From: Bacteroidaceae bacterium | GTDB taxonomy: Bacteria; Bacteroidota; Bacteroidia; Bacteroidales; Bacteroidaceae | Assembly: GCA_016284045.1 (NCBI GenBank) | Contig: JAEEOB010000071.1 | Span: 2,394 to 66,393 of the forward strand | Reading direction: 5' to 3' | Length of the DNA stretch: 64,000 nt | In this document: in pieces, positions 1 to 63,984 of the stretch | How positions within the stretch are numbered: position 1 is the stretch's first letter | How the letters are laid out: each line of letters opens with the position of its first letter | Program-made: the position numbers and the translations under genes | Notes under the pieces: generated by a model | What the model was told of the DNA's origin: nothing | The model's input: only the letters and a program-made list of their open reading frames with translations | Database searches by the model: none

Positions 1-2626
1 CGGCGTTGTCTCCATCGACAGCGAAGGCAGCGGTGAGTACGGGTTCGTTCAGGTAAGTCAGGTTTCGCGTGGAATTGTCGTAGGTACGCACCTCGTAGTT
101 CACTGCCCAGTCGAAGTCTTCGTTCAGGTCTGTAGGATAGTCACCTCCGCGGGTAGGAATACCCCAGAAGTCCCAGAGGTGGTTGGCATAAGGCACGGTG
201 ATGACATAGTAGTCGGAGTCTGTGCCGTCGCTGGCGGTCACAACGATGGCACCACCCTTGTCGGCGTCGTCGCCTGTGGCTGAGATAGACTCAATCTTAC
301 CCGTCTGCGGGTTGATCGTACCCGTGATGTCGCCCTTGAACTCGGCTGAGTAAATGAGAGACGGATTCAGTCCGCTAATTACAGTCTCAACAGCCATGCC
401 TGCATAGTTGGTCACTTCGTTGAAATCTACAACAACTGATTTCTCGGCGAACGACCACGCACTTTCGTAGGTGAACGACTGCAGCTGGTAAGTGCCCCAT
501 GAGTTCACACCGTTGGAAGACGGAATGTTGGCGTAGAGGTAGTAGGTCTTTCCGGCTGTGAGAATAGCTTCTACATCAACTTCGGAGTTGTTCGTGAAGC
601 TGGAAGTTGGAGTGTAGCTCCAAACTGGTTCAAATTGAGAGTCGCTGGCATCAAGATAGTTCAGTGACTCAATCTGGATGGTTTCCCAGTTGGTTCCGAT
701 GGCGGTTTTGTTCAAACCCATCGTGAGTGTACCGTCAGTCACATTCACCTCAAATGTAAAACGTCCGTTGGTAGCCACCTCTGTAGCGTTCAAAGCAGTG
801 ATAGCCTGAGACTGGCGACCTGCGGCTGTCTCCACAAACACATTGGCGATATTGTTGGCCTGAGAAGCATCCCATGTCCATCCTTCTGGACGTGCCACTT
901 CAGCGCGGTTAGTAAAGCAAGCGTTTGCCTGAAGTACGACTGTGTAACGACCGTTGGCAAGACCCGATACAGTCTGTTTAAGCATATCGCCGGTATTGGA
1001 AATCGTGTTCTCGTATTTCTCAGCCATCTTATAACCATTCACACGAGGAGTTGGTTCACCCGGTGGTGTGGTTCCACTCCACGAAGAGCCATCTTTACTT
1101 ACTTGTCCGGTTACATCGCTTGGCATGGGAGCAAGGTTGTCAGCATCCACCAGATAAACACTGTTGGTACCGCGGAGATAACCTTTTACTGTGAGCTTAC
1201 CAGCAGCTGAAGGCTTAAATGTATAGAAAGTACCCTGATGAGGCAGAACATTACCATTTGAACCGTCATACCAAATTTGCTGCCATCCATTTGAGTCGAG
1301 AGTAGTGGCCACGTTGCCGATGCCATTCTCGTCACGTACAATCGTAATATTGGTTATACCATCCGCATTCTCACCAAATTCCATTGTCATCTTAGGAACC
1401 GAGTTTACTACTCGCTCGCCCAGCTTACCAGGACCTGTCAGCGTATAGGTGTTGCCATCCACACTGAATGTGGCTTCATCGGCAGATATGGTCAGCGTAT
1501 AGCTGGCAGTCATGGTCAGGTTATTATATTTCACGGTTGCATTCACACCTGTAATACCAGTGTTTACACCCATCAAGTCACCCGAGTGTTCCTCTCCACC
1601 AAGTTTCGCAATCTTGGTGTTGCTTACAGAGTATGTCACCTCCGAGTTAGCCGGACAGCAGATTGTCGGCTCATCAATGTCCAAGTCAATCAGCTCTGCT
1701 TCACAGGCGGAGTAGTTGAAAGCAACAGGGTCGTAAACAGTGATATAACGAACTGCAAAATAGTTGCTGGGTTCAACTGTACCTCGCGTCAACCTTACAT
1801 ACCCGTCTGAAGCAGCTATACAGCTGAACTCACCTCCTGCATCAATTGAGCCAGTAGTCAGTTCACTGCCAGACCCGTCAATAGCGTTAGTCACATAAAT
1901 AGTCATACCATGACGGTCTGAACCATCATAACTGCCACCACCTATAGTAACTATCTGACCAGCTGTTACAGGGATGTCAACGGATCCATTTGCTGTTCTG
2001 AAACGAAGTCCCCCCCAAATATTAAAGTCCCCTGATTCTGATCTATTACCATTTATCTTTAGACCGTCTATAACACTTGGAAGATTGTCAGTATTATATC
2101 CGCTGTTTACAAAATCCCAAGTTTTTGAATCCTCAAAATACTCAGAACGCTGCACGGTAATGGAAGAAATCACTTTATAGCGTGGATATGTAAATCCAAA
2201 TGCACCATCAGCGTTTACAGAAAAAGTGCATGTGCCATTAAGTGTGCCATTTGTGTTTACTCCATTAACTAAACCGCTAATAGCATCATTTGTTACAACA
2301 GTCACAATATCGCCAGCTCTCAAGCCGAGTACGGCTACGTTACGGCCACCACTATTATTGTTGTAAAGGCCTGCTGGATTGTCGTTTATCTTCCAATTGC
2401 CAGGACCTTGTAGAGCAATTCCACTTAAAGCACCAGTACAATATGTACAACCAGCATTGTTAATAGTAATGTTTTGGGAGTTGTCGACTTCGCTACCACT
2501 CCAGATGACAGAGGTAAAGTCCCACGACTTCACATTTATCAGTCGTGTTCCTGCCCACGCACTCCCGGTTCCTATCAGCATCAATGCTAATAGCAACCAA
2601 GATTGAAAAAGTAGTTTTTTTCTCAT
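1..2626 (-). CDS. large secreted protein of unknown function (N-terminal ~875 aa; 3' end lies beyond the window)
   Basis: ATG at 2626-2624 followed by a signal-peptide-like MRKKLLFQSWLLLALMLIGTGSAWA. The frame was checked open by hand at both ends, and no competing long ORF is in the track over 1-2626. It is absent from the track because it has no stop inside the window. No family recognised. Confidence 0.65.
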   Translation of the reverse strand, partial: MRKKLLFQSWLLLALMLIGTGSAWAGTRLINVKSWDFTSVIWSGSEVDNSQNITINNAGCTYCTGALSGIALQGPGNWKINDNPAGLYNNNSGGRNVAVLGLRAGDIVTVVTNDAISGLVNGVNTNGTLNGTCTFSVNADGAFGFTYPRYKVISSITVQRSEYFEDSKTWDFVNSGYNTDNLPSVIDGLKINGNRSESGDFNIWGGLRFRTANGSVDIPVTAGQIVTIGGGSYDGSDRHGMTIYVTNAIDGSGSELTTGSIDAGGEFSCIAASDGYVRLTRGTVEPSNYFAVRYITVYDPVAFNYSACEAELIDLDIDEPTICCPANSEVTYSVSNTKIAKLGGEEHSGDLMGVNTGITGVNATVKYNNLTMTASYTLTISADEATFSVDGNTYTLTGPGKLGERVVNSVPKMTMEFGENADGITNITIVRDENGIGNVATTLDSNGWQQIWYDGSNGNVLPHQGTFYTFKPSAAGKLTVKGYLRGTNSVYLVDADNLAPMPSDVTGQVSKDGSSWSGTTPPGEPTPRVNGYKMAEKYENTISNTGDMLKQTVSGLANGRYTVVLQANACFTNRAEVARPEGWTWDASQANNIANVFVETAAGRQSQAITALNATEVATNGRFTFEVNVTDGTLTMGLNKTAIGTNWETIQIESLNYLDASDSQFEPVWSYTPTSSFTNNSEVDVEAILTAGKTYYLYANIPSSNGVNSWGTYQLQSFTYESAWSFAEKSVVVDFNEVTNYAGMAVETVISGLNPSLIYSAEFKGDITGTINPQTGKIESISATGDDADKGGAIVVTASDGTDSDYYVITVPYANHLWDFWGIPTRGGDYPTDLNEDFDWAVNYEVRTYDNSTRNLTYLNEPVLTAAFAVDGDNA

Positions 2627-3107
2627 GATTGTTTTGTTAAAAGATTTAGTTAAGTTAAACATATATTTTTTTTGTTTAGAGTTTAGAGTTGAGGGTTTAG
2701 AGTGTAGTAAGCTCAGCAATGGATTGCAGTCGATGTTTTCTTGTGATTTGGCATCCATAAAGCAGTCCCACACACACCGCAAAGCAGACCTGATGGTGGC
2801 AGGTCTGGTGTTGGATTAACTGAAATCTTGTCAGAAAATGGTCTGTTAGCAGATAAGTAGTAAATTGGTTGTTGTATCGTCAGTCATGCAGACAAGTCGC
2901 TATGCCTTCGCTGTTCCGGCATTCTTCACCGTATTTCTCTTCTTTCCCGTCGTTCGCTACAATTATCGCAAATCCTCTCTCACGTCTCAAAATCCTTTAA
3001 CTTTCAGCCGGTTCTTTCGTCTTTCGATCTATATTGTCTGCCAAGGCGTTAGGAATACCGCGGGGACTCACGCACCCAGTGCGGTATGTATGTTCTATAA
3101 TTCCGTG

Positions 3108-3115
3108 CAAAGTTA
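3108..3115 (-). promoter_or_regulatory. candidate -7 box TAACTTTG (Bacteroidetes TAnnTTTG)
   Basis: Plus strand reads caaagtta. It is the only such box upstream of the start at 2626, which implies a ~480 nt leader. Confidence 0.35.
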
Positions 3116-3152
3116 CGGATTTTCCGTTAAATTCAGTTACAAATCATTAAAG

Positions 3153-3176
3153 AATTTTACGTTTTGACGTAAAATT
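3153..3176. promoter_or_regulatory. perfect 10-bp inverted repeat AATTTTACGT-N4-ACGTAAAATT, candidate operator
   Basis: Read directly from the sequence. Centred ~50 bp upstream of the 3108-3115 box on the minus strand. Confidence 0.3.
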
Positions 3177-3236
3177 TCAACTTATTGGAAGTGAATGGTA
3201 TCAGATTGTAAAAAAGAGGAAGAGAGAGGAGGATTT

Positions 3237-3440
3237 GGCCGTGCTTCGCCGGCCGATACTGCGAGACACGAGGTCTCGCCTACCTCTCCCGTGGGGTAAT
3301 TGAAATGCAGAAGGTATCAGAGACGCAGGAGGCTCTGAAAAGCAAAAGGCCAGGGCTTCAAGAAGGGAGCATAGCTTATTCTGCAACCGTAAGCCCTCAA
3401 GAAATCGCAGAGGAGAGGTAGGCAGGACCTTGTGTCCTGC
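3237..3440. repeat. REPIN-like doublet, left flank of the RAYT gene
   Basis: Contains GCGAGAC-ACGAG-GTCTCGC-CTAC (3261-3289) and GTAG-GCAGGAC-CTTGT-GTCCTGC (3412-3440). Long blocks are near-identical to 4641-4892. Confidence 0.8.
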
Positions 3441-3448
3441 AATCATAA

Positions 3449-4549
3449 TCAGCTATGCAGGCCACATAATCGGCAGATGTCAGCCGCCATCTGGTTGAGA
3501 GCAAGGCACTGCTCGCGTGTAATAGGACGTTTTTCGTTATGATGACCCCATGGTGCAAGAAAAAGAATCTTCCCCATCGCACAGGCCTCCAAATAAGCAG
3601 CTGGCGGCTTATAAAACTCACTGAAACCGTTTTCCAAAAGTACAATCAACGAAAATCCAGAATCGAACAGATTGCGCGTCACCACTTTCTCACCAGCACT
3701 GATACAAGGAGTGACAAACACAGCGCCTTGCATGGCCTGCACCACGCATTTTGTTATTTCTTTCTCAATGTCAGATTCTCCCATTCTTCTTGAGCACTGC
3801 AACTGAATGAGCCTTCCGTTCAATAGATTGAAATTACCCACATAGTGAAAGGAATAGCCTGCAATTTCAGCTTGTTTGACATGAAAAAAATCCTGGCTCA
3901 GCAACTTTATTGCAAGCCGCCGGGGATTGTCGTAAATGTAATGGAGAAGTGTTTTGCGCCGTTCATCACTCGTTACGATACTATCTGCGAACCCATTTTC
4001 CCACAGTTGCAATACGGAACATCCCCGCTCTTTGAAGTCAGGTCCGTTTATCAGCTGGTTATATTTCCTAGTGGTGAGAAATTTGAAACGGCCGATTATC
4101 TTTCCAATCGGCATAGGAAGCTGAGCTCTTACCTGCAACATTCCATGTATGTGGTCCGGCATGATTTGCAGTGCGACATTGTCAATCTGGCTGTATTCCA
4201 AAGGGATTTCTTCCCATTGCGATTTTATCATCTCCCCCACAGCCGAGAGTTGGATGTATGGAAGTTTCTCTCGTTTTTCTACGGATGTCTGATGTCCCAC
4301 AGGAGAGGTAGGCAGGACCTCGTGTCCTGCTTTTCGATTATCAAAGGACGCAGAAAATCCATGTGGTATGACCAGCTTCCCAAACAAATGGCGTCGTTCA
4401 TTCAGACAAATCGTAAACATATACGTTGCCTTATCTTTGTAGTCATGGATGTCGCAGCGACGGTGCATGGATGGCTTACTGCCTTTTGCGTATTTTTTAT
4501 GGTCTGATCGTTGCTTTACGAATTCCTCTGGTGTTTTCTTTTTTGCCAT
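3449..4549 (-). CDS. IS200/Y1-family HUH tyrosine transposase, REP-associated (RAYT-like), with a ~140 aa C-terminal extension
   Basis: 366 aa. HUH motif QIMPDHIHGML, then WENGFADSIV...LLHYIYDNPRRL (Tyr motif of the YIxxNP type). Flanked by GTAG-hairpin repeats. Confidence 0.75.
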   Translation of the reverse strand: MAKKKTPEEFVKQRSDHKKYAKGSKPSMHRRCDIHDYKDKATYMFTICLNERRHLFGKLVIPHGFSASFDNRKAGHEVLPTSPVGHQTSVEKREKLPYIQLSAVGEMIKSQWEEIPLEYSQIDNVALQIMPDHIHGMLQVRAQLPMPIGKIIGRFKFLTTRKYNQLINGPDFKERGCSVLQLWENGFADSIVTSDERRKTLLHYIYDNPRRLAIKLLSQDFFHVKQAEIAGYSFHYVGNFNLLNGRLIQLQCSRRMGESDIEKEITKCVVQAMQGAVFVTPCISAGEKVVTRNLFDSGFSLIVLLENGFSEFYKPPAAYLEACAMGKILFLAPWGHHNEKRPITREQCLALNQMAADICRLCGLHS

Positions 4550-4568
4550 TGGAGCTCTTTTTTAGATG

Positions 4569-4576
4569 CAAAAATA
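4569..4576 (-). promoter_or_regulatory. candidate -7 box TATTTTTG for the RAYT gene
   Basis: Plus strand reads caaaaata, ~20 nt upstream of the ATG at 4549. Confidence 0.3.
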
Positions 4577-4640
4577 AGGAAAAAGAAGAAAACGAGAAAG
4601 GTTTTTTCCTTTTTTAACTTTTTATTGAAGGTGGTGATGG

Positions 4641-4892
4641 GGCCGTGCTTCGCCGGCCGCTATTGCGAGACACCAGGTCTCGCCTACCTCTCCCTTGGGG
4701 TAACTAAAATGCAGAAGGTATCGGGAAATGCCATACCGGCCAAGAAAAGGAACAGAAGGAATCAGGAAAGCTACGCTGGCTAAGAAAAGGAACAGAAGGA
4801 ATCTATATAGGAAAAGGTGGCTCAAACCTGCTCTGCAACCGTAAGCCCTCAAGAAAACGCACAGGAGAGGTAGGCAGGACCTTGTGTCCTGC
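4641..4892. repeat. REPIN-like doublet, right flank of the RAYT gene
   Basis: Contains GCGAGAC-ACCAG-GTCTCGC-CTAC (4665-4693) and GTAG-GCAGGAC-CTTGT-GTCCTGC (4864-4892). Has an internal 22-nt duplication of aagaaaaggaacagaaggaatc. Confidence 0.8.
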
Positions 4893-4931
4893 AAAAAAGC
4901 AAAAAAACGCCCAAGCAATCCAGCTTGGGCG
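4893..4931 (-). terminator. Rho-independent terminator of tsf
   Basis: On the minus strand: CGCCCAAGC-TGGATT-GCTTGGGCG followed by a T-rich tract (TTTTTTTGCTTTTTT). Confidence 0.75.
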
Positions 4932-4956
4932 GCTTTAACTTATTTAGATATACTGA

Positions 4957-5949
4957 TTACTCAGCGCGGAGTGTGTAGCGCTTGAAGTCAACGACTGTGA
5001 GGTCTTTGTCAACGCTCTTGAGGTAGTCAGCAACAGAAAGCTTAGCATCGTCGATGTAAGCCTGATTGAGGAGGCAAACCTCCTTGTAGTACTTGTTGAG
5101 ACGTCCCTGAGCAATCATCTCAATCTTCTTCTCATTGAGGTTCTGACGTGCAGACTCACCCACAGTGGCGATGATCTCACGTGCCTGAGCACCCTGCTCC
5201 TCAGTGATGTACCCTTTTGTGATGTTAGAGTTGATGTGGTCTTCACTGTCAACGAGGTTCGGGTTGATACCAGCCTTCTTGAGCTGAACCTCAATGGCGC
5301 GCTTCACCTCATCCTCCTTTGTCTTGTCGATGATAGCAGCAAGCTCCTTAGCCTTGTCAGCGTCGGAAATCTGGCTCTCATCGAGTGCGATAGGGCTCAT
5401 GGCAGCCACCTGCATGGCAACGCCCTTAGCCACCTCGTCAGAACAGTCCTTGTTGAATGCGACGAGTGTGCAGAGGAAGCTCTGGCTCATGTGGTTGTAA
5501 GCCACCACCTTCTCGCCCTCAACGGTTGCATATCCGTCGAGCTCCATCTTCTCACCAGTCACACCTGAGCGGTTCACCACAGCCTCAGAAGCCGGACCAC
5601 CGTCGATATCGAGTGCGTTCACCTCTTCCTGAGTCTTAGCCTTAGCAGCCACAGCAGCGTCGATCACCTTGTTTGCAAGAGCCACGAAGTCAGCGTTCTT
5701 AGCCACGAAGTCGGTCTCACACTTCAGCGCGAGCAGCGCACCGAACTTACCGTCAACCTTAGCGAGGACGCATCCCTCAGCAGCCTCGCGGTCGGAACGC
5801 TTAGCTGCCACCATCTGTCCTTTCTTACGAAGAATCTCCATTGCGGCGTCCATGTCGCCGTTAGCCTCTGTCAGTGCCTTCTTGCAGTCCATCAGACCAG
5901 CCTGAGTCTTCTGACGAAGCGCATTTATGTCTTGTAATGTAATAGCCAT
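4957..5949 (-). CDS. tsf: translation elongation factor Ts
   Basis: 330 aa. N-terminus MAITLQDINALRQKTQAGLMDCKKAL is typical of EF-Ts, and it sits directly downstream of rpsB. Confidence 0.97.
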   Translation of the reverse strand: MAITLQDINALRQKTQAGLMDCKKALTEANGDMDAAMEILRKKGQMVAAKRSDREAAEGCVLAKVDGKFGALLALKCETDFVAKNADFVALANKVIDAAVAAKAKTQEEVNALDIDGGPASEAVVNRSGVTGEKMELDGYATVEGEKVVAYNHMSQSFLCTLVAFNKDCSDEVAKGVAMQVAAMSPIALDESQISDADKAKELAAIIDKTKEDEVKRAIEVQLKKAGINPNLVDSEDHINSNITKGYITEEQGAQAREIIATVGESARQNLNEKKIEMIAQGRLNKYYKEVCLLNQAYIDDAKLSVADYLKSVDKDLTVVDFKRYTLRAE

Positions 5950-6019
5950 TTTGATATTAAAATTAAAAGATTTACGAATTAAGATTTTTTTCGGATTTCT
6001 CGGAGATTCCGGCTTACCT

Positions 6020-6045
6020 GGAAATTCCGGAAATTCCGGAAAAAC
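6020..6045. repeat. tandem 9-bp word GGAAATTCC x2.8 in the rpsB-tsf spacer
   Basis: ggaaattcc ggaaattcc ggaaaaac read directly from the sequence. Confidence 0.8.
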
Positions 6046-6062
6046 TTAAATTGCTGTTTGTA

Positions 6063-6974
6063 TTACTCAGCAGCCTCTTCCTTTGCCGGAGCCTCAGGCT
6101 CAGCCTTAGGTGCCTCAGCAGGAGCAGCCTCTTCCTCAGCAGGAGCGGCCTCTTCCTTTACGGGAGCCTCTGCAGCCTCTGCTTTCTTCTCAGCGCGTGC
6201 TTTGGAGATACGCTTTCTCATCGGACGGTCCTCAGGAACAGTCTCCTCAGTTACCTCGCCAGCAGCTTCCATATCCACACGCTCAGCCTTGCGCTCCTCG
6301 ATACCCTCTGCGATAGCAGCCACACACGCGTCAACAATAACTTCGATAGACTTGGTTGCGTCGTCGTTTGCCGGGATAACGAAATCCACGTTTGTAGGGT
6401 CGGAGTTGGTATCCACTATTCCGAACACAGGAATACCCAGACGGTTAGCCTCTTTCACTGCGATGTTCTCCTTCATCACGTCGATAACGAAGAGAGCATA
6501 AGGAAGACGCTTGAGGTCAGCGATAGATCCTAGGTTCTTCTCCAGCTTCTCGCGCTTACGGCGGATCTGAAGGTTCTCACGCTTCGACAGCTTGTCGTAT
6601 GTACCGTCGGCAAGCATCTTGTCGATGTTCGCCATTTTCTTCACTGCCTTACGGATAGTGGGGAAGTTGGTGAGCATACCGCCCGGCCAACGCTCAATCA
6701 CGTATGGCATACCAACAGATGCGGCTTTCTCAGCCACCACTTCTTTAGCCTGCTTCTTAGTAGCAACAAATAAGATACGCTCTCCCTTCTTGGCAATCGC
6801 CTTCAGTGCCTCAGCGGCCTGGTCGATTTTAGCCACAGTCTTGTGGAGGTCTATGATATGGATGCCGTTGCGCTCCATGAAGATGTACGGAGCCATAGCG
6901 GGGTTCCACTTTCTTTTCAGGTGGCCGAAATGGCTGCCTGCTGCAAGTAATGTCTCAAATGATGTTCTTGCCAT
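6063..6974 (-). CDS. rpsB: 30S ribosomal protein S2 with an Ala/Glu/Pro-rich C-terminal tail
   Basis: 303 aa. MARTSFETLLAAGSHFGH... and ...NRLGIPVFGIVDTNSDP are typical of S2. The last ~60 aa are low-complexity (AEAAEAPVKEEAAPAEEEAAPAEAPKAEPEAPAKEEAAE). Confidence 0.97.
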   Translation of the reverse strand: MARTSFETLLAAGSHFGHLKRKWNPAMAPYIFMERNGIHIIDLHKTVAKIDQAAEALKAIAKKGERILFVATKKQAKEVVAEKAASVGMPYVIERWPGGMLTNFPTIRKAVKKMANIDKMLADGTYDKLSKRENLQIRRKREKLEKNLGSIADLKRLPYALFVIDVMKENIAVKEANRLGIPVFGIVDTNSDPTNVDFVIPANDDATKSIEVIVDACVAAIAEGIEERKAERVDMEAAGEVTEETVPEDRPMRKRISKARAEKKAEAAEAPVKEEAAPAEEEAAPAEAPKAEPEAPAKEEAAE

Positions 6975-8127: not shown

Positions 8128-8263
8128 TCTTTAATTTTACTTTTTTGTTGTTACTAAATAGCTTACTGCCAGTGATTCACGGACCATGCTCCCGGCTAAT
8201 AGGACACACTATCCACACACCAACAAAGACACGCTTCGGGGAGCGCGTCTGTAAAATGGACTG

Positions 8264-8388: not shown

Positions 8389-11031
8389 TTATTTCATAAC
8401 AGGCCGGACACTATGACCATCTATACGTTGAGAGTATCCTATATGTGGCTCATCATCGTTGGTGTAGAGTCCATAAGCATACATATAGTATTTTATGATA
8501 GAATATTTACGGCTTGGACCTATTGTTGAAGACCAGTATCTCAAAAACCTGCCTGTATCAGAAGAATGATCGCCAGCAGCCGGGAAAAACACATAATTCC
8601 CATTAGTACCCGTAAACAACCATCCATTCACGCCTTTCACCGTTGTCCATTCTTTTGTGCAGTTATCCACAAGCATGTTGAGCTGTTCAACACTCGGCAT
8701 ACACCAGTTTCCTTTCCACTTCACATGAGCCACATCATAATCGGTTCCGGAAATGTCCTCAATATATTTGCAAGAAAAAACAGTACTGTCACAAAGCGAG
8801 TAGTTTTCCCACCCGTCTTTATCCTTCACCTTTGTCTCCCCCCATGCATAATACCCGCCATATTCCCAAGGAGAGGAAGCCCCGACATTGCAGCAAGCAA
8901 ATTTCACACCGATGCCCAAATCGATGGCATGAGGATGCTTATTGTCCGGGCAGAGGGGAACGTCCAGTTCAGCATACGGGCTGGCAAGCACATCAAAGCC
9001 GGCCATCTTGACCACCGGATAGACACGGTATTTTTTACCCCCTGTCAGGTTTTGAAACTCAATGCTATAAGAAGCGAAATCCTTCACATTCGTATATTGT
9101 CTCTCAAAATATGACGGTGTGCGCACAACATTGCCGTCCTCATCAAAGATTGCGAATCCGACAGAAAAAGGGAAAAGCCCGCCTTTGGATACTTTCGCCG
9201 ACACCACATATTTTGACGGATTGTTTTTGTCGCGAGTGAATTTCACGTCAGAGAAACTTGGAATGACTTGCCCGTCATAGATAGCCTTACCGGAGGCACT
9301 ATAGTCGTCGCCCATCTGCCACTGAGACGGTCCGTCAGTGTCAGTGGCAATTCCATGAGCACTCCAGGAAGGAGAGATTGTCGCCTTATCATTTTGCAGA
9401 CTCTCATAGGCTTCGGTGCTACGTCCCGCACTATTCAGATAAACATTAGACGGAAAACCCGAAACAGTCTCCACACCGGCAGAGAGAGCGCCTGCCAAGC
9501 ATCCTGTCCTGTCACTTCCCAAAGGCAGACCGACAATCCAGTCAAACCCAACCTTCAACTTTCCACGCATCAACATATTTTCCACATCCACATCAACGCC
9601 TACCACAGAAGAGTGCTGGTCAACCCTATTCACACAAGGACTGCTGAGGTTATATCCTCCAGAAGCAGGATAATAGGTGATGTCCACTGTATGGACATAG
9701 TCAGCTTTGACATCTGCAGTCATGGCAAAATCCATCATGTCCCCATCGATTCTCGGACCGACATTCAGATAAAGCCTGGTACCCCATGGTCCTCTAACCT
9801 GGTCGCTCTTGTAGGTGGAATAAAGAATGGCATTCTTCAAACTACCGACAAGAGAATAATTGATTTCCGACTGGATATTGCAAACAGCATGAAGTTCTAT
9901 GAACGAGAGCAGACGGTCGGCATCAACCACACACTTCATCCATCCTGTGATAACAGGACTGGCATTGAAAGACAGCTTTGAACTTGAATACAAACCATAA
10001 ACCATACGGGGAGTAAAATAGCTGCTCCCGTTGACTGAGTAAGACTGACTGATATCAGGGATATTGACAGCAAAACGTGTGATTTCGTTTTGTTGAGCGC
10101 TTTGGCGGGCTTTAACATCATTACCGTCAACATCCTTTTCAACAAGAATGGCATATCCGTAGAACTGCGACATCACCTCGTGGAGATCAGCAGGACGGCA
10201 TTTAACCACCCAGCCGTTATCGGTGGATGAGATGCCCGAGACCCAACCAGCGAACCCGCAGGGGAATTTGTCGGATGATTCAACAATGGCAAGCTTATCT
10301 CCAGATTTGGGCAGAACAGAAGACGGGGTGTTTGAATCCAAGGTGATAGTCATTCCGTCAACATTCTTCACATAGTCATGGATATTTCCATCGAGGCGAA
10401 TGGTCTCCGCCTTATAGACAGGATCCTTACGCACGAAACTCATATACTCAATATCATCGAGTGAAAACGTGTAGGATTGAGTTGTTGTCTGCACAGTCTG
10501 AACTCCAGAGTCAAAGGTTATACTTTTCACCTCTTCTCGAAGAAACATATTGAACTCGCCATCATTACGAAATATGCAAAAAAGGTCACCAACAGGCCCA
10601 ACAGGCCCAGACGACTGTCCATGTATGATGTCGCTTCTGTTCTTTCCTGCCATCTCATTGATGATAGCCACAACGTCAGAAATGTCGGTATAACAGTCAC
10701 CGTTCACATCAGAAAAACGTTTGAAGTTATCATCGCCTGACATCACATTAATTACCGCAACGACATCAGAGACATCAACCAGGAAATCCCTGTTCACATC
10801 TCCGAAACGTGGAACGTAACGGATTGTCAGCACCTCCTCATTAGGAATTAAGATGGTTCCAGATGAGGAAGTGAAACTTACTTTGTCCGCTTTTGGCTCG
10901 ATTTTTGACAATCCGGGAAGGGGAAAGAAAGTGGAAGTGCCGTCAAGATGACGGACAGCTATTGACTGCGCAAAGGAAGCACCAGGGAAAAGCAGACACA
11001 GTAAAAATAATGTAAACAACCGGTATCTCAT
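8389..11031 (-). CDS. secreted protein: N-terminal type-I dockerin repeats, large unknown beta-rich core, C-terminal DUF1566/FISUMP-like domain
   Basis: 880 aa. Signal peptide MRYRLFTLFLLCLLFPGASFAQS. Dockerin repeats GDVNRDFLVDVSDVVAVINVMSG and SDVNGDCYTDISDVVAIINEMAG. C-terminus has ...WCMPSVEQLNMLV...GHSVRPVMK. Confidence 0.8.
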   Translation of the reverse strand: MRYRLFTLFLLCLLFPGASFAQSIAVRHLDGTSTFFPLPGLSKIEPKADKVSFTSSSGTILIPNEEVLTIRYVPRFGDVNRDFLVDVSDVVAVINVMSGDDNFKRFSDVNGDCYTDISDVVAIINEMAGKNRSDIIHGQSSGPVGPVGDLFCIFRNDGEFNMFLREEVKSITFDSGVQTVQTTTQSYTFSLDDIEYMSFVRKDPVYKAETIRLDGNIHDYVKNVDGMTITLDSNTPSSVLPKSGDKLAIVESSDKFPCGFAGWVSGISSTDNGWVVKCRPADLHEVMSQFYGYAILVEKDVDGNDVKARQSAQQNEITRFAVNIPDISQSYSVNGSSYFTPRMVYGLYSSSKLSFNASPVITGWMKCVVDADRLLSFIELHAVCNIQSEINYSLVGSLKNAILYSTYKSDQVRGPWGTRLYLNVGPRIDGDMMDFAMTADVKADYVHTVDITYYPASGGYNLSSPCVNRVDQHSSVVGVDVDVENMLMRGKLKVGFDWIVGLPLGSDRTGCLAGALSAGVETVSGFPSNVYLNSAGRSTEAYESLQNDKATISPSWSAHGIATDTDGPSQWQMGDDYSASGKAIYDGQVIPSFSDVKFTRDKNNPSKYVVSAKVSKGGLFPFSVGFAIFDEDGNVVRTPSYFERQYTNVKDFASYSIEFQNLTGGKKYRVYPVVKMAGFDVLASPYAELDVPLCPDNKHPHAIDLGIGVKFACCNVGASSPWEYGGYYAWGETKVKDKDGWENYSLCDSTVFSCKYIEDISGTDYDVAHVKWKGNWCMPSVEQLNMLVDNCTKEWTTVKGVNGWLFTGTNGNYVFFPAAGDHSSDTGRFLRYWSSTIGPSRKYSIIKYYMYAYGLYTNDDEPHIGYSQRIDGHSVRPVMK

Positions 11032-17930: not shown

Positions 17931-18007
17931 GGATTCTAGGGGTTCCTAGGATTTTCTAGGGTTTCCTAGGGGTTTCTAGGGGTTCCTGGGGGTTTCTAGG
18001 ATTTCTA
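17931..18007. repeat. tandem decamer GGTTYCTAGG x7.7 in the nqrA-nqrB spacer
   Basis: ggattctagg ggttcctagg attttctagg gtttcctagg ggtttctagg ggttcctggg ggtttctagg atttcta, followed by a 14-bp word caactaaaaactaa x2.7 (18014-18051). Confidence 0.9.
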
Positions 18008-18053
18008 TTAAAACAACTAAAAACTAACAACTAAAAACTAACAACTAAAAGAA

Positions 18054-24521: not shown

Positions 24522-24608
24522 CTGATGATTTACTTTATTCTCAGCTATAAACACTCATCTATAAACTAAAAACTATAAACTATAAACTAAATAATAAATA
24601 ATAATAAG

Positions 24609-28185: not shown

Positions 28186-28250
28186 AATCAGTTTTTAGCA
28201 CCAATTTCATAGAAACTGAAAACTAAAAACTAAAAACTAAAAACTCAATT

Positions 28251-29558
28251 ATGATTTTCAATCCAAAAATGGAGTGCATGCCCAGAGAGGACATGCATAA
28301 GCTGCAGAGCGAGAGACTATGCAAAATCGTGAAATACTGCTATGAGCGCGTGCCGTTCTATAAAAAGAAGATGGACCGCCTCGGTCTGTCTCCCGACGAC
28401 ATCAAAAGCATCGACGATATTGTGAAACTGCCGTTCACCACCAAAACCGATCTTCGCGACGAATATCCTTTTGGTCTGCAAGCTGTTCCAATGAGTGAGG
28501 TAAGACGAATACACGCATCATCGGGTACAACCGGCAAGCCCGTAGTAGCCACCTACACCGACCACGACATTGAGATGTGGTCAGAGGGCGTGGCACGTGT
28601 GATGAGCTGCGCCAACGTAGGCAAAGGCGATGTCATTCAGGTGTCGTATGGCTACGGACTCTTCACCGGCGGCCTGGGTGCCCACGACGGTGCGAACAAA
28701 GTGGGAGCCATTCAGCTGCCCACCTCCGCAGGAAACTCAGAGAAGCAGATTATGCTCATGCAGGACTTCGGATCCACCGTGCTTGCCTGCACCCCGTCTT
28801 ACGCACTCCATCTCGCTGAACGCATAGAGCAAAGCGACAAGGTTGACATCAACAACATGAAGCTCCGTGTGGGTTTCTTCGGTGCAGAGCCCTGGACTGA
28901 GGGAATGCGCAAAGAACTGGAATCCAAACTCCACATCAAGGCATTCGATATTTACGGCCTGACCGAGATGAGCGGTCCTGGCGTGGGCGGCGAATGTGAG
29001 GAGCAGAACGGCACCCACCTTTGGGAGGATATGTTCTACCCTGAGATTATCAACCCCGACACACTGGAGCCATGCGCACATGGCGAGTTCGGGGAGCTTG
29101 TATTCACATCGCTCTGCAAGGAGGCGATGCCGATTATCCGCTACCGCACGCGCGACCTCACCCGTCTGATTTACGAGCCATGCAAATGCGGCCGCACCGC
29201 CGTGCGTATGGACAAAATCCTGGGCCGAAGCGACGACATGCTGATTGTCCGCGGTGTGAACGTGTTCCCTTCAACCATCGAGGCCATCCTCACCGAATTC
29301 CCGGTGTTCACACCACAGTATTTCATCACTGTTGACAGAAAGAACAACGAGGATATGTTCGACCTCGACGTGGAGCTGCGCAACGAGTTCTTCTCACCCA
29401 ACCCGTCGAAGCAGATGCCGTTCATCAAGCCGCTCTACGACCGTATCGTCAGCGTGGTAGGCATCAAGCCGAACATCCACATCAAAGAGCCTAACAGCAT
29501 CGCCCGCTCCATCGGCAAAGCAAAGCACGTGAACGACAAACGAAATTTCCACAGATAA
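28251..29558 (+). CDS. paaK: phenylacetate-CoA ligase family (PaaK-like) adenylate-forming enzyme
   Basis: 435 aa. SSGTTGKPVV AMP-binding motif and YRTRDLT motif. Confidence 0.9.
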   Translation: MIFNPKMECMPREDMHKLQSERLCKIVKYCYERVPFYKKKMDRLGLSPDDIKSIDDIVKLPFTTKTDLRDEYPFGLQAVPMSEVRRIHASSGTTGKPVVATYTDHDIEMWSEGVARVMSCANVGKGDVIQVSYGYGLFTGGLGAHDGANKVGAIQLPTSAGNSEKQIMLMQDFGSTVLACTPSYALHLAERIEQSDKVDINNMKLRVGFFGAEPWTEGMRKELESKLHIKAFDIYGLTEMSGPGVGGECEEQNGTHLWEDMFYPEIINPDTLEPCAHGEFGELVFTSLCKEAMPIIRYRTRDLTRLIYEPCKCGRTAVRMDKILGRSDDMLIVRGVNVFPSTIEAILTEFPVFTPQYFITVDRKNNEDMFDLDVELRNEFFSPNPSKQMPFIKPLYDRIVSVVGIKPNIHIKEPNSIARSIGKAKHVNDKRNFHR

Positions 29559-31744: not shown

Positions 31745-31790
31745 TTCGTTATTTTGTAGATTGCATAAAGAAATCGGTGAAAGCTCTATT

Positions 31791-31945
31791 GGGTTCGGCT
31801 GGGGGCGTGGTCGTCCCGACCGCGTCAGTCGTCGAGGGCTCGATGCCCGAAGATGTATGAAATAAAAAGCCATCCGCAGGCTACTAAAAACTACAAACTA
31901 TAAGCTATAAACTAAAAAAGATGCACGAAGACGGATGAAAAAGAA
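31791..31945 (+). repeat. structured repeat family 3, copy 1
   Basis: gggttcggctgggggcgtggtcgtcccgaccgcgtcagtcgtcgagggctcgatgcccgaag... followed by a CTAC/CTAT-word tail. Matches 61557-61684 (inverted) and 63820-63924. Confidence 0.8.
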
Positions 31946-38050: not shown

Positions 38051-38077
38051 TAGAGACGCAATACAGCGCGTCTCTAC
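38051..38077 (-). repeat. GTAG-hairpin repeat family 2 (single module) overlapping the HTCS stop codon
   Basis: TAGAGACGC-N8-GCGTCTCTA with a 9-bp stem. The minus strand reads AAG-TAG-AGACGCG, so the TAG of GTAG is the stop codon at 38074-38076. Confidence 0.8.
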
Positions 38078-42130: not shown

Positions 42131-42250
42131 TACGGTTTTCTTTAGACACCCCACGGGGAGTCTCTACAACTTCTACGGCTATTTCATACGTGGGTGAGTA
42201 ATTGGGAAGCGTTCCCTCCCTTTAAACTTTGATTGGGAAGCGTTCCTACC
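42131..42250 (-). repeat. GTAG-hairpin repeat family 2, long copy
   Basis: tacggttttctttagacaccccacggggagtctctacaacttctacggctatttcatacgtgggtgagtaattgggaagcgttcc...; aligns with 53208-53343 and 47571-47675. Confidence 0.85.
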
Positions 42251-47570: not shown

Positions 47571-47675
47571 TACGGTTTCAGCAGAGACGCCCCACGGGGA
47601 GTCTCTACATGGGGACACAGAAGGTTTGCAAGGATTGGGAACGTTCCGGTGACGGGTGAGGTGCGGTTTCTGTAA
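47571..47675 (-). repeat. GTAG-hairpin repeat family 2 copy
   Basis: tacggtttcagcagagacgccccacggggagtctctacatgg...ggattgggaacgttccggtgacgggtgaggtgcggtttc. Confidence 0.8.
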
Positions 47676-53207: not shown

Positions 53208-53343
53208 TACGGTTTCTTTTAGACACCCCACGGGGAGTCTCTACAGGCACTACGGCTATTTCATGCGTGGGCAGGAATTAGGAAGCGTTTTGATGACGGG
53301 TGGTTTACGGTTTTATTTTAGACGCACCACGGCGCGTCTCTAC
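53208..53343 (-). repeat. GTAG-hairpin repeat family 2, two-hairpin copy
   Basis: Hairpins at ~53220-53243 and ~53320-53339, each followed by CTAC on the plus strand. The second CTAC (53340-53343) contains the stop codon of the 53340-53660 gene. Confidence 0.85.
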
Positions 53344-53660
53344 TTTTCCTCGACAGGCCTTTTAGGGGTTCGCTTGGGACTGAGCACCTCTATGGCCTCC
53401 TCGCCTCCGGGATTGTCATCGTTGCCAAACCCAGCGATGATATTGATGATAGCCACGACATCAGAGATATCCACTTTATTGTCTTTGTTTACATCGCCGT
53501 CAAACTTGTTGCTGTTGCTGCCCGAAATGATGTTGATTGTGACAACTACATCAGAAATATTAACATCCTGATCTTCGTTAACATCCCCTTTCTTCTGGGC
53601 AGACACAACAGAACAGGTGAGAAAGGCGACAAGACAAACAAGAATTCTTAACATAATCAT
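53340..53660 (-). CDS. small secreted dockerin-only protein
   Basis: 106 aa. Signal peptide MIMLRILVCLVAFLTCSVVSAQ. Two dockerin repeats GDVNEDQDVNISDVVVTINIISG and GDVNKDNKVDISDVVAIINIIAG. ~30-aa charged tail. Confidence 0.7.
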   Translation of the reverse strand: MIMLRILVCLVAFLTCSVVSAQKKGDVNEDQDVNISDVVVTINIISGSNSNKFDGDVNKDNKVDISDVVAIINIIAGFGNDDNPGGEEAIEVLSPKRTPKRPVEEK

Positions 53661-61556: not shown

Positions 61557-61684
61557 TGGTTTGTAGTTGATAGTTTATAGTTTGTAGTTTTTAATAGTCA
61601 TGCGGATGTTCTTGTTTTCATCCGTCTTCGGGCATTTAGCCCTCGACGTCTGACACGGTCGGGACGACCATGCCCCCAGCCGAA
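61557..61684 (-). repeat. structured repeat family 3, copy 2 (inverted)
   Basis: The reverse complement reads ttcggctgggggcatggtcgtcccgaccgtgtcagacgtcgagggctaaatgcccgaagacggatgaaaacaagaacatccgcatgactattaaaaactacaaactataaactatcaactacaaacc. Confidence 0.85.
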
Positions 61685-63592: not shown

Positions 63593-63819
63593 TGGCTATT
63601 TTTTTGTATGGAGTTAATTCTTATTTGGAGTTAATTTTCTGAGAAAAAGGAAGTACACCAGCCACATTGAACCCATCCACTTGGGGGTGCGGTCATCTTG
63701 ACCGCATCAGCGTGTGCGAAGCACTGCAAAACATATCTTCTGTAAATCACAGGATAAGGGTGGGATCACATTCAAATTCTGCTACTGACAAAACTGATGC
63801 AGGTGGAAGCACAGAAAGG

Positions 63820-63924
63820 TTCGGCTGGGGGCATGGTTGTCCCGACCGTGCCAGCCGTCGAGGGCAAAATGCCCGAAGACGGATGAAAAAAACATCCGTA
63901 GGGCTACTTAAAACTATAAACAAC
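63820..63924 (+). repeat. structured repeat family 3, copy 3
   Basis: ttcggctgggggcatggttgtcccgaccgtgccagccgtcgagggcaaaatgcccgaagacggatgaaaaaaacatccgtagggctacttaaaactataaac. Confidence 0.85.
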
Positions 63925-63954
63925 AGTCTGACCGTGCTGCGCCGGTCTAATTGT

Positions 63955-63984
63955 GCGGTCGGGATGACCACAAACCCAGCCGAG
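63955..63984 (-). repeat. structured repeat family 3, partial inverted copy at the window edge
   Basis: The reverse complement reads tcggctgggtttgtggtcatcccgaccgc, which matches the head of the family. Confidence 0.6.

What the first reader, a model, noticed from the sequence alone, without database searches (positions are those of the whole stretch)
3237..4892. RAYT-type HUH transposase bracketed by REPIN-like doublets that follow the 5'-GTAG + hairpin REP grammar, in a Bacteroidales genome
CDS 3449-4549 carries an HUH motif (QIMPDHIHGML) and a downstream Tyr motif (LLHYIYDNPRRL). These are typical of IS200/Y1 and REP-associated tyrosine transposases. The CDS is bracketed by two directly repeated 200-250 bp blocks (3237-3440 and 4641-4892). 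Each block holds two inversely oriented modules. One is GCGAGAC-N5-GTCTCGC-CTAC (3261-3289 and 4665-4693, with GTAG on the minus strand). The other is GTAG-GCAGGAC-N5-GTCCTGC (3412-3440 and 4864-4892). Read on their own strands, both are 5'-GTAG followed by a hairpin with a 7-bp stem. That is the architecture described for proteobacterial REPs bound and cleaved by RAYTs. The two stem variants differ by compensatory changes, and two inverted REPs per block is the REPIN arrangement. The right block ends at 4892, exactly where the T-tract of the tsf terminator begins. REP/RAYT systems are characterised almost exclusively in Proteobacteria. This protein also has a ~140 aa C-terminal extension beyond the Y1 core.
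Basis: partly seen in the sequence, partly recalled or inferred. Interest (0 to 1): 0.7.

Follow-up and report, generated by a model that had tools for sequence, protein, structure and literature searches.

The report
RAYT–DprA fusion gene with hairpin repeats
A rumen/gut Bacteroidales chromosome carries one gene for a REP-type single-strand-DNA cutting enzyme fused to a DprA-like DNA-binding domain and bracketed by its own GTAG-tagged hairpin repeats, but these repeats have not spread through the genome, so this is a new variant of a known system and not a full REP/REPIN population.

Summary
CDS 3449-4549(-) encodes a Y1/HUH enzyme with conserved HUH and Y..DNP motifs, and two directly repeated blocks (3232-3442, 4636-4894) bracket it. 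Each block holds two inverted modules of 5'-GAGAGGTAG, a 7-bp stem and a 5-nt loop.

- A fifth module lies in frame inside the gene (4303-4330).
- An invariant 18-nt "clamp" hairpin (GGCCG-GCGAAGC-A-CGGCC) follows each outer module.
- The C-terminal extension is a DprA-like Rossmann domain.

Orthologues at 42-60% identity sit at the same site beside tsf. They are flanked by the same clamp hairpin, but the main hairpins differ and covary. Across 32 distinct units, 223 of 224 stem pairs are canonical. I read this as a REPtron-like locus.

The dispersed REP/REPIN claim fails for this hairpin type. There is no further copy in the 64 kb. There is none in an assembly holding the locus at 28x. Reference genomes and metagenomes hold only a handful. 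The gene is single-copy, stays in a fixed chromosomal context, and is absent from the plasmid and phage collections searched, so it is not an IS.

REPtrons, including in-gene REP insertions, were already described in Bacteroidetes. The DprA-like fusion and the two-hairpin unit were not found in the literature searched. Verdict: new variant of a known kind, moderately interesting.

The parts
3449..4549 (-). Gene for a 366-aa two-domain protein. The N-terminal half is a Y1 HUH (RAYT-type) domain with HUH at H133/H135 and catalytic Tyr at Y204 in YIYDNP. The C-terminal half, from about residue 215 to 366, is a DprA-like Rossmann domain.
   Evidence: ORF; Pfam Y1_Tnp 29.2 bits; NCBIfam REP_Tyr_transpos 45 bits; AF2 model with pLDDT 89 and pTM 0.81; Foldseek hits to IS608/ISDra2 TnpA, E. 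coli RAYT 4er8 and DprA 4ljr/5mll/3uqz; motifs conserved across 76 homologues.
3232..3442 (.). Left block: a REPIN-like inverted doublet made of clamp hairpin, module A_L(-), a 122-nt spacer and module B_L(+). It ends 8 nt from the stop codon.
   Evidence: Direct repeat with the right block. As ssDNA it folds into one long hairpin with the clamp outside, -42.7 kcal/mol, z = -4.0.
3237..3254 (-). Clamp hairpin GGCCG-GCGAAGC-A-CGGCC (left copy).
   Evidence: predicted fold. The sequence is invariant across units whose main hairpins differ.
3261..3296 (-). Module A_L: CCCCACGG-GAGAGGTAG-GCGAGAC-CTCGT-GTCTCGC.
3413..3440 (+). Module B_L: GAGAGGTAG-GCAGGAC-CTTGT-GTCCTGC (no clamp hairpin).
4288..4330 (+). 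Intragenic module (TCTGATGTCCCACAG-GAGAGGTAG-GCAGGAC-CTCGT-GTCCTGC), antisense to the gene and in frame. It encodes AGHEVLPTSPVGHQT in a loop predicted to be disordered.
   Evidence: Residues 77-89 have pLDDT below 50. The same loop carries the module in the flipped orientation in L026.
4569..4576 (-). TATTTTTG, a match to the Bacteroidetes -7 promoter consensus TAnnTTTG, 20 nt upstream of the ATG.
   Evidence: Read from the sequence; the consensus comes from established knowledge of Bacteroides promoters. An equivalent TACTTTTG precedes the L012 orthologue. This is an inference, not a test.
4636..4894 (.). Right block: clamp hairpin, module A_R(-), a 170-nt spacer containing a 40-nt tandem duplication (4727-4803), and module B_R(+).
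4641..4658 (-). Clamp hairpin (right copy).
4665..4700 (-). Module A_R: CCCCAAGG-GAGAGGTAG-GCGAGAC-CTGGT-GTCTCGC.
4865..4892 (+). Module B_R, abutting the T-tract of the tsf terminator.
4893..4931 (-). Intrinsic terminator of tsf (stem 4908-4931, T-tract 4907-4893). This is context, not part of the element.

Best explanation
This is a resident, chromosomal REPtron-like locus. It consists of a single-copy gene for a RAYT-type Y1 (HUH) single-strand DNA endonuclease/ligase fused to a DprA-like ssDNA-binding domain, surrounded by the hairpins that the enzyme most likely recognises.

Proposed mechanism, inferred by analogy with E. coli, Stenotrophomonas and Marinomonas TnpAREP (PMC8266576):
- When the DNA is single-stranded, for example on the lagging-strand template, the Y1 domain binds the 7-bp hairpin together with its 5' GTAG 'guide'.
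- It cleaves at a nearby dinucleotide, forming a 5'-phosphotyrosine link through Y204, and can rejoin the strand elsewhere.
- The DprA-like half supplies extra ssDNA binding or partner recruitment.

Shown here: the protein folds and motifs; the hairpin grammar and its covariation; conserved position with changing hairpin type; in-frame copies inside genes.

Inferred: binding, cleavage, and the role of the DprA-like half.

In this organism the hairpin family has not proliferated and is confined to the locus (two REPIN-like doublets plus one in-gene copy). Related rumen Prevotellaceae carry a few scattered units, some in mixed tandem (BIME-like) arrays.
For: Protein:
- Pfam Y1_Tnp scores above its cut-off.
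- REP_Tyr_transpos is the best NCBIfam model.
- The HUH and Y..DNP motifs are at least 90% conserved in 76 homologues.
- The model is confident, and Foldseek matches Y1 transposases and the RAYT 4er8 for the N-terminal half and DprA for the C-terminal half.
- The family profile aligns to the start of the H. pylori DprA Rossmann domain.
- Differences from the 99% variant are concentrated at third codon positions, which indicates purifying selection.

Hairpins:
- 5 modules are found where 0 are expected.
- Across 32 distinct units from 20 loci there are 12 different stems. 223 of 224 stem positions pair, and 5 of the 7 pairs show double compensatory changes.

Link between gene and hairpins:
- Orthologues at the same tsf site carry the same clamp hairpin. 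The main hairpin type follows the protein subclade: window, L010 and L026 have GTAG+GC[GA][GA]GAC, whereas L012-16 and L048-49 have GTA[N]+GCCGCAG.
- P0005 has two in-gene GTAG+GCAGAGG modules.

Traces of movement:
- The module is inserted in frame in an unrelated phage-like ORF.
- The in-gene module is flipped in place between lineages.
- Two strains with an identical RAYT protein carry different unit types at one site.

Not an IS or other mobile element:
- There is one Y1 gene in the window.
- The context is the same in all contigs.
- There are no plasmid or phage matches.
Against: - No biochemical data exist for this family.
- The protein is below NCBIfam's RAYT cut-off (45 against 80 bits) and matches none of the published subclass signatures.
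- The defining population of dispersed cognate REPs is missing here.
- Family members outside the tsf clade (P. jejuni L032, L036, L050) have no flanking hairpins, so the protein may have a hairpin-independent job.
- The RAYT protein is only 60% identical where tsf DNA is 93% identical. That fits poorly with quiet vertical inheritance.
- The assembly used for the 'confined to the locus' test comes from an organism that differs from the window genome outside the locus.
Confidence: 0.65

Rival explanations
1. One reading: a fully fledged REP/REPIN system, in which the doublets are members of a genome-wide population of replicating REPINs served by this RAYT.
For: - The blocks have REPIN-like anatomy.
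- Scattered copies of the same unit exist in RAYT-less contigs of related organisms.
- Other REP-like hairpin families are dispersed in this window: 5 copies of GTAG+AGACRC and 4 of a GGCTGGG-type.
Against: - No further T1 copy is found in 64 kb, even with 3 mismatches allowed.
- None is found in an assembly with the locus at 25-28x.
- Other whole rumen metagenome assemblies hold at most three further contigs matching the unit.
- 185,579 reference genomes gave only 4 matching stretches.
- Scattered copies are singletons or same-strand tandems, not inverted doublets.
Confidence: 0.1
2. An IS200/IS605-like insertion sequence: a mobile unit bounded by same-strand hairpins (for example B_L to B_R, 1.45 kb) that inserted next to the tsf terminator.
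For: - Same-orientation hairpins lie on both sides of the gene, 1404-1452 nt apart.
- Gene orientation relative to tsf differs between lineages.
- RAYT alleles are discordant with tsf divergence.
Against: - The protein carries the class 2 Y---NP signature rather than the IS200 Y---Q signature, and it scores only 20 bits on the IS200 model.
- It is 366 aa, there is no tnpB, and there is one copy in the window.
- Every contig shows the same context, and four lineages share the tsf site.
- The tract of about 99% identity shared with L008 runs past the blocks instead of stopping at them.
- There are no plasmid or phage copies.
Confidence: 0.1
3. The hairpins are mainly transcript-level or DNA-topology elements (terminators or mRNA stabilisers downstream of tsf and other genes). 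Their proximity to the Y1 gene would then be incidental, or the gene would be a decaying relic.
For: - Units lie in intergenic 3' regions, and one abuts the tsf terminator.
- G.T wobble positions in some unit types would pair in RNA.
- Metatranscriptome contigs cover the upstream block.
- P0002 has lost the catalytic Tyr region.
Against: - Hairpin type tracks the RAYT subclade at the same site.
- Modules occur on both strands and inside coding sequence, where they cannot act as terminators.
- Catalytic motifs are conserved, with mostly third-position differences from the 99% variant.
Confidence: 0.1

Closest known systems
E. coli REPtron (TnpAREP/RAYT, Quentin subclass 2.2, Bertels group 2; PDB 4er8)
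   Same: - Y1 HUH core with D-H-u-H, a WE motif and the class 2 Y---NP tyrosine motif.
- Single-copy chromosomal gene.
- Flanked by inverted pairs of hairpins with a 5' GTAG foot.
- Structural match to 4er8.
   Different: - 366 aa against about 165 aa, because of the extra DprA-like domain.
- Perfect 7-bp stems without the bulge that E. coli requires.
- A second, invariant clamp hairpin in each outer unit.
- No genome-wide REP population.
- Below the NCBIfam equivalog cut-off.
Subclass 2.4 REPtrons of Cyanobacteria and Bacteroidetes (Quentin et al. 2018, PMC6006769; Bertels group 4)
   Same: - Found in the same phylum.
- Canonical GT[AG]G REPs within 1 kb of the gene.
- REP copies inserted in frame inside the tnpAREP gene in peripheral loops.
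   Different: - The signature motifs differ: NH[IFV]H / WQ / YIxNNP there, DHIH / WE / YIxDNP here.
- Median length is 194 aa with no C-terminal domain.
[quoted passage not shown] Here the window copy lies before the HuH motif.
REPINs of Pseudomonas fluorescens (Bertels and Rainey 2011)
   Same: Two inverted REPs that fold into one long hairpin next to a RAYT gene.
   Different: - The spacers are longer (122-170 nt).
- Only two doublets exist, both at the RAYT gene.
- There is no replicating population.
BIMEs (mosaic REP arrays of enterobacteria)
   Same: In related contigs, units of different hairpin types are strung together head to tail (L002, L021-L023).
   Different: - The arrays are same-strand tandems rather than alternating inverted REPs.
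- Each unit carries the clamp hairpin.
- Copy number is low.
IS200/IS605 transposase TnpA (IS608, ISDra2)
   Same: The catalytic fold and the expected chemistry on hairpinned ssDNA.
   Different: - No Y---Q motif.
- Not multicopy.
- No tnpB.
- Fixed genomic position.
DprA / Smf (and the DprA-like ShosA)
   Same: - The C-terminal 150 aa share the DprA Rossmann fold (Foldseek E = 3e-4 to 1e-3).
- The opening motif G[ND]..LL..P.k...(S/T)RR....G..(V)S aligns with H. pylori DprA.
   Different: - Pfam DNA_processg_A does not detect it.
- It lacks the SAM and winged-helix domains.
- GxD/AH is replaced by IS.GEK.
- It is fused to a nuclease.

Membership tests
RAYT / TnpAREP (class 2 TnpAY1) | Y1 HUH catalytic core with a HuH motif and one catalytic Tyr | tested here: met
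   Pfam Y1_Tnp scores 29.2 bits against a cut-off of 23. MPDHxH and Y..DNPrRL are at least 90% conserved in 76 homologues. The fold matches IS608, ISDra2 and 4er8.
RAYT / TnpAREP (class 2 TnpAY1) | Class 2 signature Y---NP, as opposed to Y---Q in IS200 (PMC6006769) | tested here: met
   YIYDNP at residues 204-209.
RAYT / TnpAREP (class 2 TnpAY1) | Passes the curated RAYT model (NCBIfam NF047646 equivalog cut-off) | tested here: not met
   45.4 bits against a cut-off of 80. It is still the best-scoring model, ahead of IS200 at 19.6 bits.
RAYT / TnpAREP (class 2 TnpAY1) | Fits one of the published subclasses 2.1-2.8 (motifs and length) | tested here: not met
   The combination DHIH / WE / YIxDNP, 366 aa and a DprA-like tail matches no row of Table 1 in PMC6006769. 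No tree was built with their HMMs.
RAYT / TnpAREP (class 2 TnpAY1) | Low copy number, no IS ends, fixed chromosomal location | tested here: met
   There is one Y1 gene in 64 kb. The context is identical in all contigs. Orthologues sit at the same tsf site. P0106 is in one context on 19 contigs.
REPtron | Hairpins with 5' GT[AG]G at the foot within +/-1000 nt of the gene, in inverted pairs | tested here: met
   Four flanking modules lie 8-340 nt from the CDS, as two inverted pairs.
REPtron | The same REP family present in multiple dispersed intergenic copies in the host genome | tested here: not met
   There are 0 further copies in 64 kb. None is present in an assembly with the locus at 25-28x. 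Relatives carry a few scattered copies. A whole genome of this organism was not available.
REPtron | The enzyme binds and cleaves its ssDNA REP (GTAG-dependent, at CT or CA) | not testable with these tools
   Needs purified protein. The CST assay is described in PMC8266576.
REPIN | Two inverted REPs forming one long hairpin | tested here: met
   The arms are 30-31 nt and 83-84% complementary. The left block folds at z = -4.0.
REPIN | A population of many near-identical doublets elsewhere in the genome | tested here: not met
   Only the two doublets at the gene were found. Scattered copies in relatives are singletons or tandems.
IS200/IS605 | Short TnpA with Y---Q, multicopy with near-identical copies, often with tnpB | tested here: not met
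   No tnpB-like ORF lies adjacent.
DprA/Smf | DprA Rossmann-type domain | tested here: inconclusive
   The fold and a weak profile match support homology (E = 0.11 by sequence). Pfam DNA_processg_A is not detected. ssDNA or RecA binding was not tested.

The most novel reading that the evidence does not exclude
The two-domain protein reads a two-hairpin site. In this reading the fast-evolving Y1 half recognises the variable GTAG hairpin, and the more conserved DprA-like half binds the invariant GCGAAGC clamp hairpin or recruits RecA.

The enzyme would then couple hairpin cleavage to strand exchange and drive local cassette flipping and replacement. That would be a site-specific ssDNA recombination system, not a REP disseminator.

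It would account for several observations:
- the flipped in-gene module;
- the flipped gene in the T2 lineage;
- the T1/T2 swap at one site in strains with an identical RAYT protein;
- the highly divergent RAYT alleles beside nearly identical tsf genes.
Probability: 0.15. Interest if true: 0.8.

Novelty: new variant of a known kind. Interest (0 to 1): 0.55.

Why it matters
RAYTs are the model for domesticated transposases, but experimental work covers only small single-domain proteobacterial enzymes.

This locus represents a large family that no curated model names beyond its Y1 core. A profile search found 1,114 clusters at 50% identity with E <= 1e-30. In this family the Y1 core is fused to a DprA-like domain.

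In one clade the gene comes with a compact, low-copy set of cognate hairpins. The type of hairpin changes with the enzyme. That gives a tractable system for two questions: how RAYT specificity co-evolves with its REP, and what a RAYT does when there is no REP population to maintain.

The invariant GCGAAGC clamp hairpin next to a variable hairpin is a concrete, testable candidate for a second recognition element.

Tried and rejected
- I suspected an rRNA operon in the ORF-poor stretch 1-3200. Rfam and ARAGORN found none. The stretch is the 5' part of a large secreted-protein gene on the minus strand that runs off the window.
- I tested whether the near-identical RAYT in L008 (98.8% nt, beside a tsf at 88.7%) marks a cassette bounded by the repeats. 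The high-identity tract starts at the tsf stop codon and runs past the left block. That points to ordinary recombination, not cassette mobility.
- I looked for inversion or excision joints in four metagenome assemblies. None were found.
- I checked for a phage or plasmid origin. tblastn found nothing. The viral-contig scans gave 0 hits for the T1 pattern and 3 for the 18-mer, which by my estimate is about chance level.
- I checked for a defence-system link through the ShosA structural hit. PADLOC gave no hit.
- Simple inversion between B_L and A_R does not reproduce the layout of the T2 lineage. I reasoned this from the coordinates.
- I tried to use run X6 as a stand-in for the whole genome. 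The locus is there at 28x, but other parts of the window are absent or only 90-95% alike. The copy-number result therefore holds for an organism carrying the locus, not strictly for the window genome.
- A MAFFT alignment of all unit types put the 5' arms out of register because the loops are 3-5 nt long. I counted pairs with my own script instead.
- The first version of that script failed on two units with CCGAAGC variants.
Full report
**What is in the sequence**

The intergenic gap between tsf (4957-5949, minus) and a large secreted-protein gene (start 2626, minus) holds one ORF, 3449-4549(-), of 366 aa. It contains QIMPDHIHGML and LLHYIYDNPRRL.

Two blocks bracket the ORF: 3232-3442 and 4636-4894. 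They are direct repeats. The left 87 nt are 91% identical and the right 63 nt are 97% identical. The centre has diverged, and the right block carries a 40-nt tandem duplication.

Each block holds two inverted modules of the form GAGAGGTAG, a 7-bp stem, a 5-nt loop and the complementary stem. The number stays at 5 when 3 mismatches are allowed.

The tsf terminator (stem 4908-4931, then a T-tract) abuts the last module.

**The real repeat unit**

Copies from other contigs show that the outer ("A") modules belong to a composite unit of about 75 nt. Its parts, in order, are:
- a tail, CCCCACNG-GAGAGGTAG;
- the 7-bp hairpin;
- a spacer of mostly 6 nt (5-8) that begins with a nearly invariant A;
- a second hairpin, GGCCG-GCGAAGC-A-CGGCC.

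This 18-nt "clamp" hairpin lies at 3237-3254 and 4641-4658 on the minus strand. The inner ("B") modules and the in-gene copy lack it.

As single-stranded DNA, the unit folds into the two predicted hairpins (-15.5 kcal/mol, z about -2.9). The whole left block folds into one long REPIN-like hairpin with the clamp outside (-42.7 kcal/mol, z = -4.0).

**The protein**

Sequence models:
- Pfam detects only Y1_Tnp, at 29.2 bits against a cut-off of 23.
- The best NCBIfam model is REP_Tyr_transpos, at 45 bits (E = 7e-12). That is below its 80-bit cut-off but well ahead of IS200 at 20 bits.
- The tyrosine motif Y---NP is the class 2 (TnpAREP) signature of Quentin et al. 2018 (PMC6006769).

Family:
- Homologues of 320-400 aa cover the whole length.
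- A profile search of 1.84 billion cluster representatives found 1,114 proteins with E <= 1e-30.
- The HUH and Y motifs are at least 90% conserved in 76 aligned members.

Structure:
- An AlphaFold model built from that alignment is confident (pLDDT 89, pTM 0.81).
- Foldseek against the PDB matches the N-terminal half to IS608 and ISDra2 TnpA and to the E. coli RAYT 4er8.
- It matches the C-terminal half to DprA from H. pylori, S. pneumoniae and R. palustris, and to the DprA-like ShosA.
- The family profile also aligns by sequence to the opening of the H. pylori DprA Rossmann domain, at E = 0.11 ("G[ND]..LL..P.k......RR....G.v(V)S").

The "~140 aa extension" is therefore a DprA-like domain. It is the more conserved half of the protein, with a median identity to the window protein of 45% against 35% for the Y1 half.

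The segment encoded by the in-gene module (residues 77-89) is predicted to be disordered. Most homologues lack it.

The 99% variant P0001/L008 differs mostly at third codon positions. Identity at codon positions 1, 2 and 3 is 0.995, 0.992 and 0.978. That is consistent with a gene under purifying selection.

**Is it mobile like an IS?**

No.
- The window has one Y1 gene.
- Every contig that encodes this protein or its 99% variant shows the same neighbours.
- Orthologues at 60% identity (L026) and at 42-44% (L012-16, L048-49) also lie directly beside tsf-rpsB.
- Other family members each occupy one fixed chromosomal context: between mlaE and an ABC gene in Prevotella jejuni, and after polA on 19 contigs for P0106.
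- There are no matches in the plasmid or phage collections.

**Are the hairpins linked to the gene?**

Yes, by covariation. At the tsf site the clamp hairpin stays the same, but the main hairpin follows the protein subclade.
- The window, L010 and L026 carry GTAG + GC[GA][GA]GAC with a 5-nt loop ("T1").
- L012-16 and L048-49 carry GTA[N] + GCCGCAG with a 4-nt loop ("T2").
- P0005 has two in-gene GTAG + GCAGAGG modules.

Across 32 distinct units from 20 loci there are 12 different stems. 223 of 224 stem positions form a standard pair. Five of the seven pairs show double compensatory changes. The outer stem of the clamp hairpin covaries as well.

**Traces of movement**
- The T1 module is inserted in frame in an unrelated phage-like ORF (L001).
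- The in-gene module is flipped in place between the window/L010 lineage and L026. It encodes AGHEVLPTSP in one and EVGRTSCSA in the other.
- Two strains with an identical RAYT protein carry a T1 unit and a T2 unit respectively at the same spot upstream of the rplM leader.
- A 46-nt tandem array of T2 units has 4 copies in one strain and 5 in another.
- In the T2 lineage the gene is inverted relative to tsf, while the units keep their orientation relative to tsf.

**Is it a dispersed REP/REPIN system?**

Not for this hairpin type.
- There is no T1 copy in the window outside the locus.
- Beyond the two at the locus, only one other clamp-bearing unit occurs, of a different type, at 63930-63981.
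- An exact scan for the 28-nt T1 pattern gave 4 stretches in 185,579 reference genomes, one of which is a likely chance hit in Streptomyces. It gave 13 stretches in 241 million metagenome records. Of these, one is the window locus, one is a related locus and three are the phage-like ORF.
- In run X6 the locus is assembled at 25-28x, and the only contigs matching either the A unit or the module core are those of the locus itself.
- In other runs, at most three further contigs match the unit or the module.

Caveat: the X6 organism differs from the window genome away from the locus. The result is therefore for an organism carrying the locus.

Scattered copies in relatives are singletons or same-strand mixed tandems (T1+T2). 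These resemble BIMEs, not inverted doublets.

**Mechanism (inferred)**

The inference rests on the experimentally studied TnpAREP enzymes (PMC8266576). These bind the folded single-strand REP. They use GTAG as a guide and cleave at a CT or CA dinucleotide 5' or 3' of the hairpin through a 5'-phosphotyrosine intermediate.

Here a C-A step at the 3' foot of the main hairpin is invariant or nearly invariant in all unit types. It is a candidate cleavage site.

The GTAG strand of the clamp-bearing units is the tsf sense strand. The plus-strand GC skew is negative across the window. Together these would place the GTAG strand on the lagging-strand template. This is a weak inference.

The DprA-like half plausibly adds ssDNA binding or partner recruitment. 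Its higher conservation parallels the invariance of the clamp hairpin, which suggests, but does not show, that the two go together.

**Comparison with what is known**

REPtrons with GT[AG]G REPs, and in-frame REP insertions into tnpAREP, have been described in Bacteroidetes and Cyanobacteria as subclass 2.4 (PMC6006769). In-frame REP insertions into unrelated genes are also on record (PMC3733652, as cited in PMC6006769).

Di Nocera et al. did list no GTAG families in Bacteroidetes.

This protein does not fit any published subclass. It has DHIH / WE / YIxDNP motifs, is 366 aa long and has a DprA-like tail. The published subclasses with large C-terminal domains (2.1, 2.3) have HTH-type tails and no REPs.

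Full-text searches found no paper that mentions DprA together with IS200 and HUH.

My placement is a new variant of a known kind.

**Expression**

Metatranscriptome contigs at 95-99% identity cover parts of the CDS and the upstream block. This is weak evidence, because DNA carry-over cannot be excluded.

A TAnnTTTG-type -7 box lies 20 nt upstream of the ATG. An equivalent box precedes the L012 orthologue.

Noticed in passing
window 38054-38077, 42144-42167, 47585-47608, 53221-53244, 53320-53343: This is a second GTAG-tagged hairpin family, AGACRC-N10-GTCTCTAC, read as 5'-GTAG-AGAC... on the minus strand. There are five copies, all in the same orientation and all outside or at the edge of the long ORFs, and their stems covary. 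Chance expectation is 0. No RAYT gene lies next to them, and which enzyme (if any) serves them is unknown.
   Followed up: partly
window 31776-31918(+), 61560-61684(-), 63802-63897(+), and 63930-63981(-): A 100-125-nt repeat begins with the hairpin GGCTGGG-NNN-RTGGTCG-tcc-CGACCG, which has a conserved T.G position. A second hairpin and a terminator-like GGATG-A7-CATCC follow. A fourth copy of the first hairpin carries a clamp-hairpin variant (GACCGGCGCAGCACGGTC), which ties this family to the T3/T4 units seen in other contigs. There is no Rfam match even at E <= 1 for the two right-hand copies. Two of the copies lie between convergent genes.
   Followed up: partly
L001 2537-3268 (same locus in L024, L027, L029): The T1 module is inserted in frame, in the same reading frame as in the RAYT gene ('AGHEVPPTSPVGHQT'). 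The host ORF lies next to an ORF that looks like an N-acetylmuramoyl-L-alanine amidase in a phage-like lysis region of a roe-deer rumen Bacteroidaceae MAG.
   Followed up: no
window 4255-4375 vs L026 6906-7030: The 27-29-nt in-gene module (tail plus hairpin) is inverted in place between two lineages. The flanking codons stay homologous and the reading frame stays open.
   Followed up: yes
L013 14700-14800 vs L014 14760-14830: Two strains with an identical RAYT protein carry different unit types at the same site upstream of the rplM leader/promoter. One has T1 and the other T2, and both begin with the clamp hairpin at the same position.
   Followed up: partly
L008 vs window 2675-6690; run X6: Identity is mosaic. 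The segment from the tsf stop codon through the RAYT locus and into the neighbouring secreted-protein gene is about 95-100% identical, while tsf and rpsB next to it are 85-92% identical. In L026, by contrast, tsf is 92.6% identical but the RAYT protein only 60%. This suggests recombinational exchange of the region downstream of tsf between lineages.
   Followed up: partly
L010 254-1237 (P0002): A 66%-identical orthologue lacks about 39 residues, including the W motif and the catalytic tyrosine. It is an apparently decayed copy that still has its flanking and in-gene modules.
   Followed up: no
L012 9023-9252; L013 and L014 11095-11370: This is a tandem array of 46-nt units, each containing a T2 hairpin. 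It lies between the RAYT stop codon and the tsf terminator. One strain has 4 units and another has 5.
   Followed up: no
window 8174-8249(-): An L13-Bacteroidia ribosomal-protein leader (Rfam RF03127, 43.8 bits) lies upstream of rplM. It supports the Bacteroidia assignment.
   Followed up: no
window 18003-18052, 24545-24608, 28202-28251, 31884-31933: AT-rich repeats with a 14-nt period (CTAAAAACTAnAAA) lie just upstream of several gene starts. Their function is unknown.
   Followed up: no
window 10646-10801, 42415-42572, 53418-53498: Paired 66-81-nt repeats occur within or next to three large minus-strand ORFs. They look like dockerin-type calcium-binding repeats; this is my reading of the translation and was not tested.
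   Followed up: no
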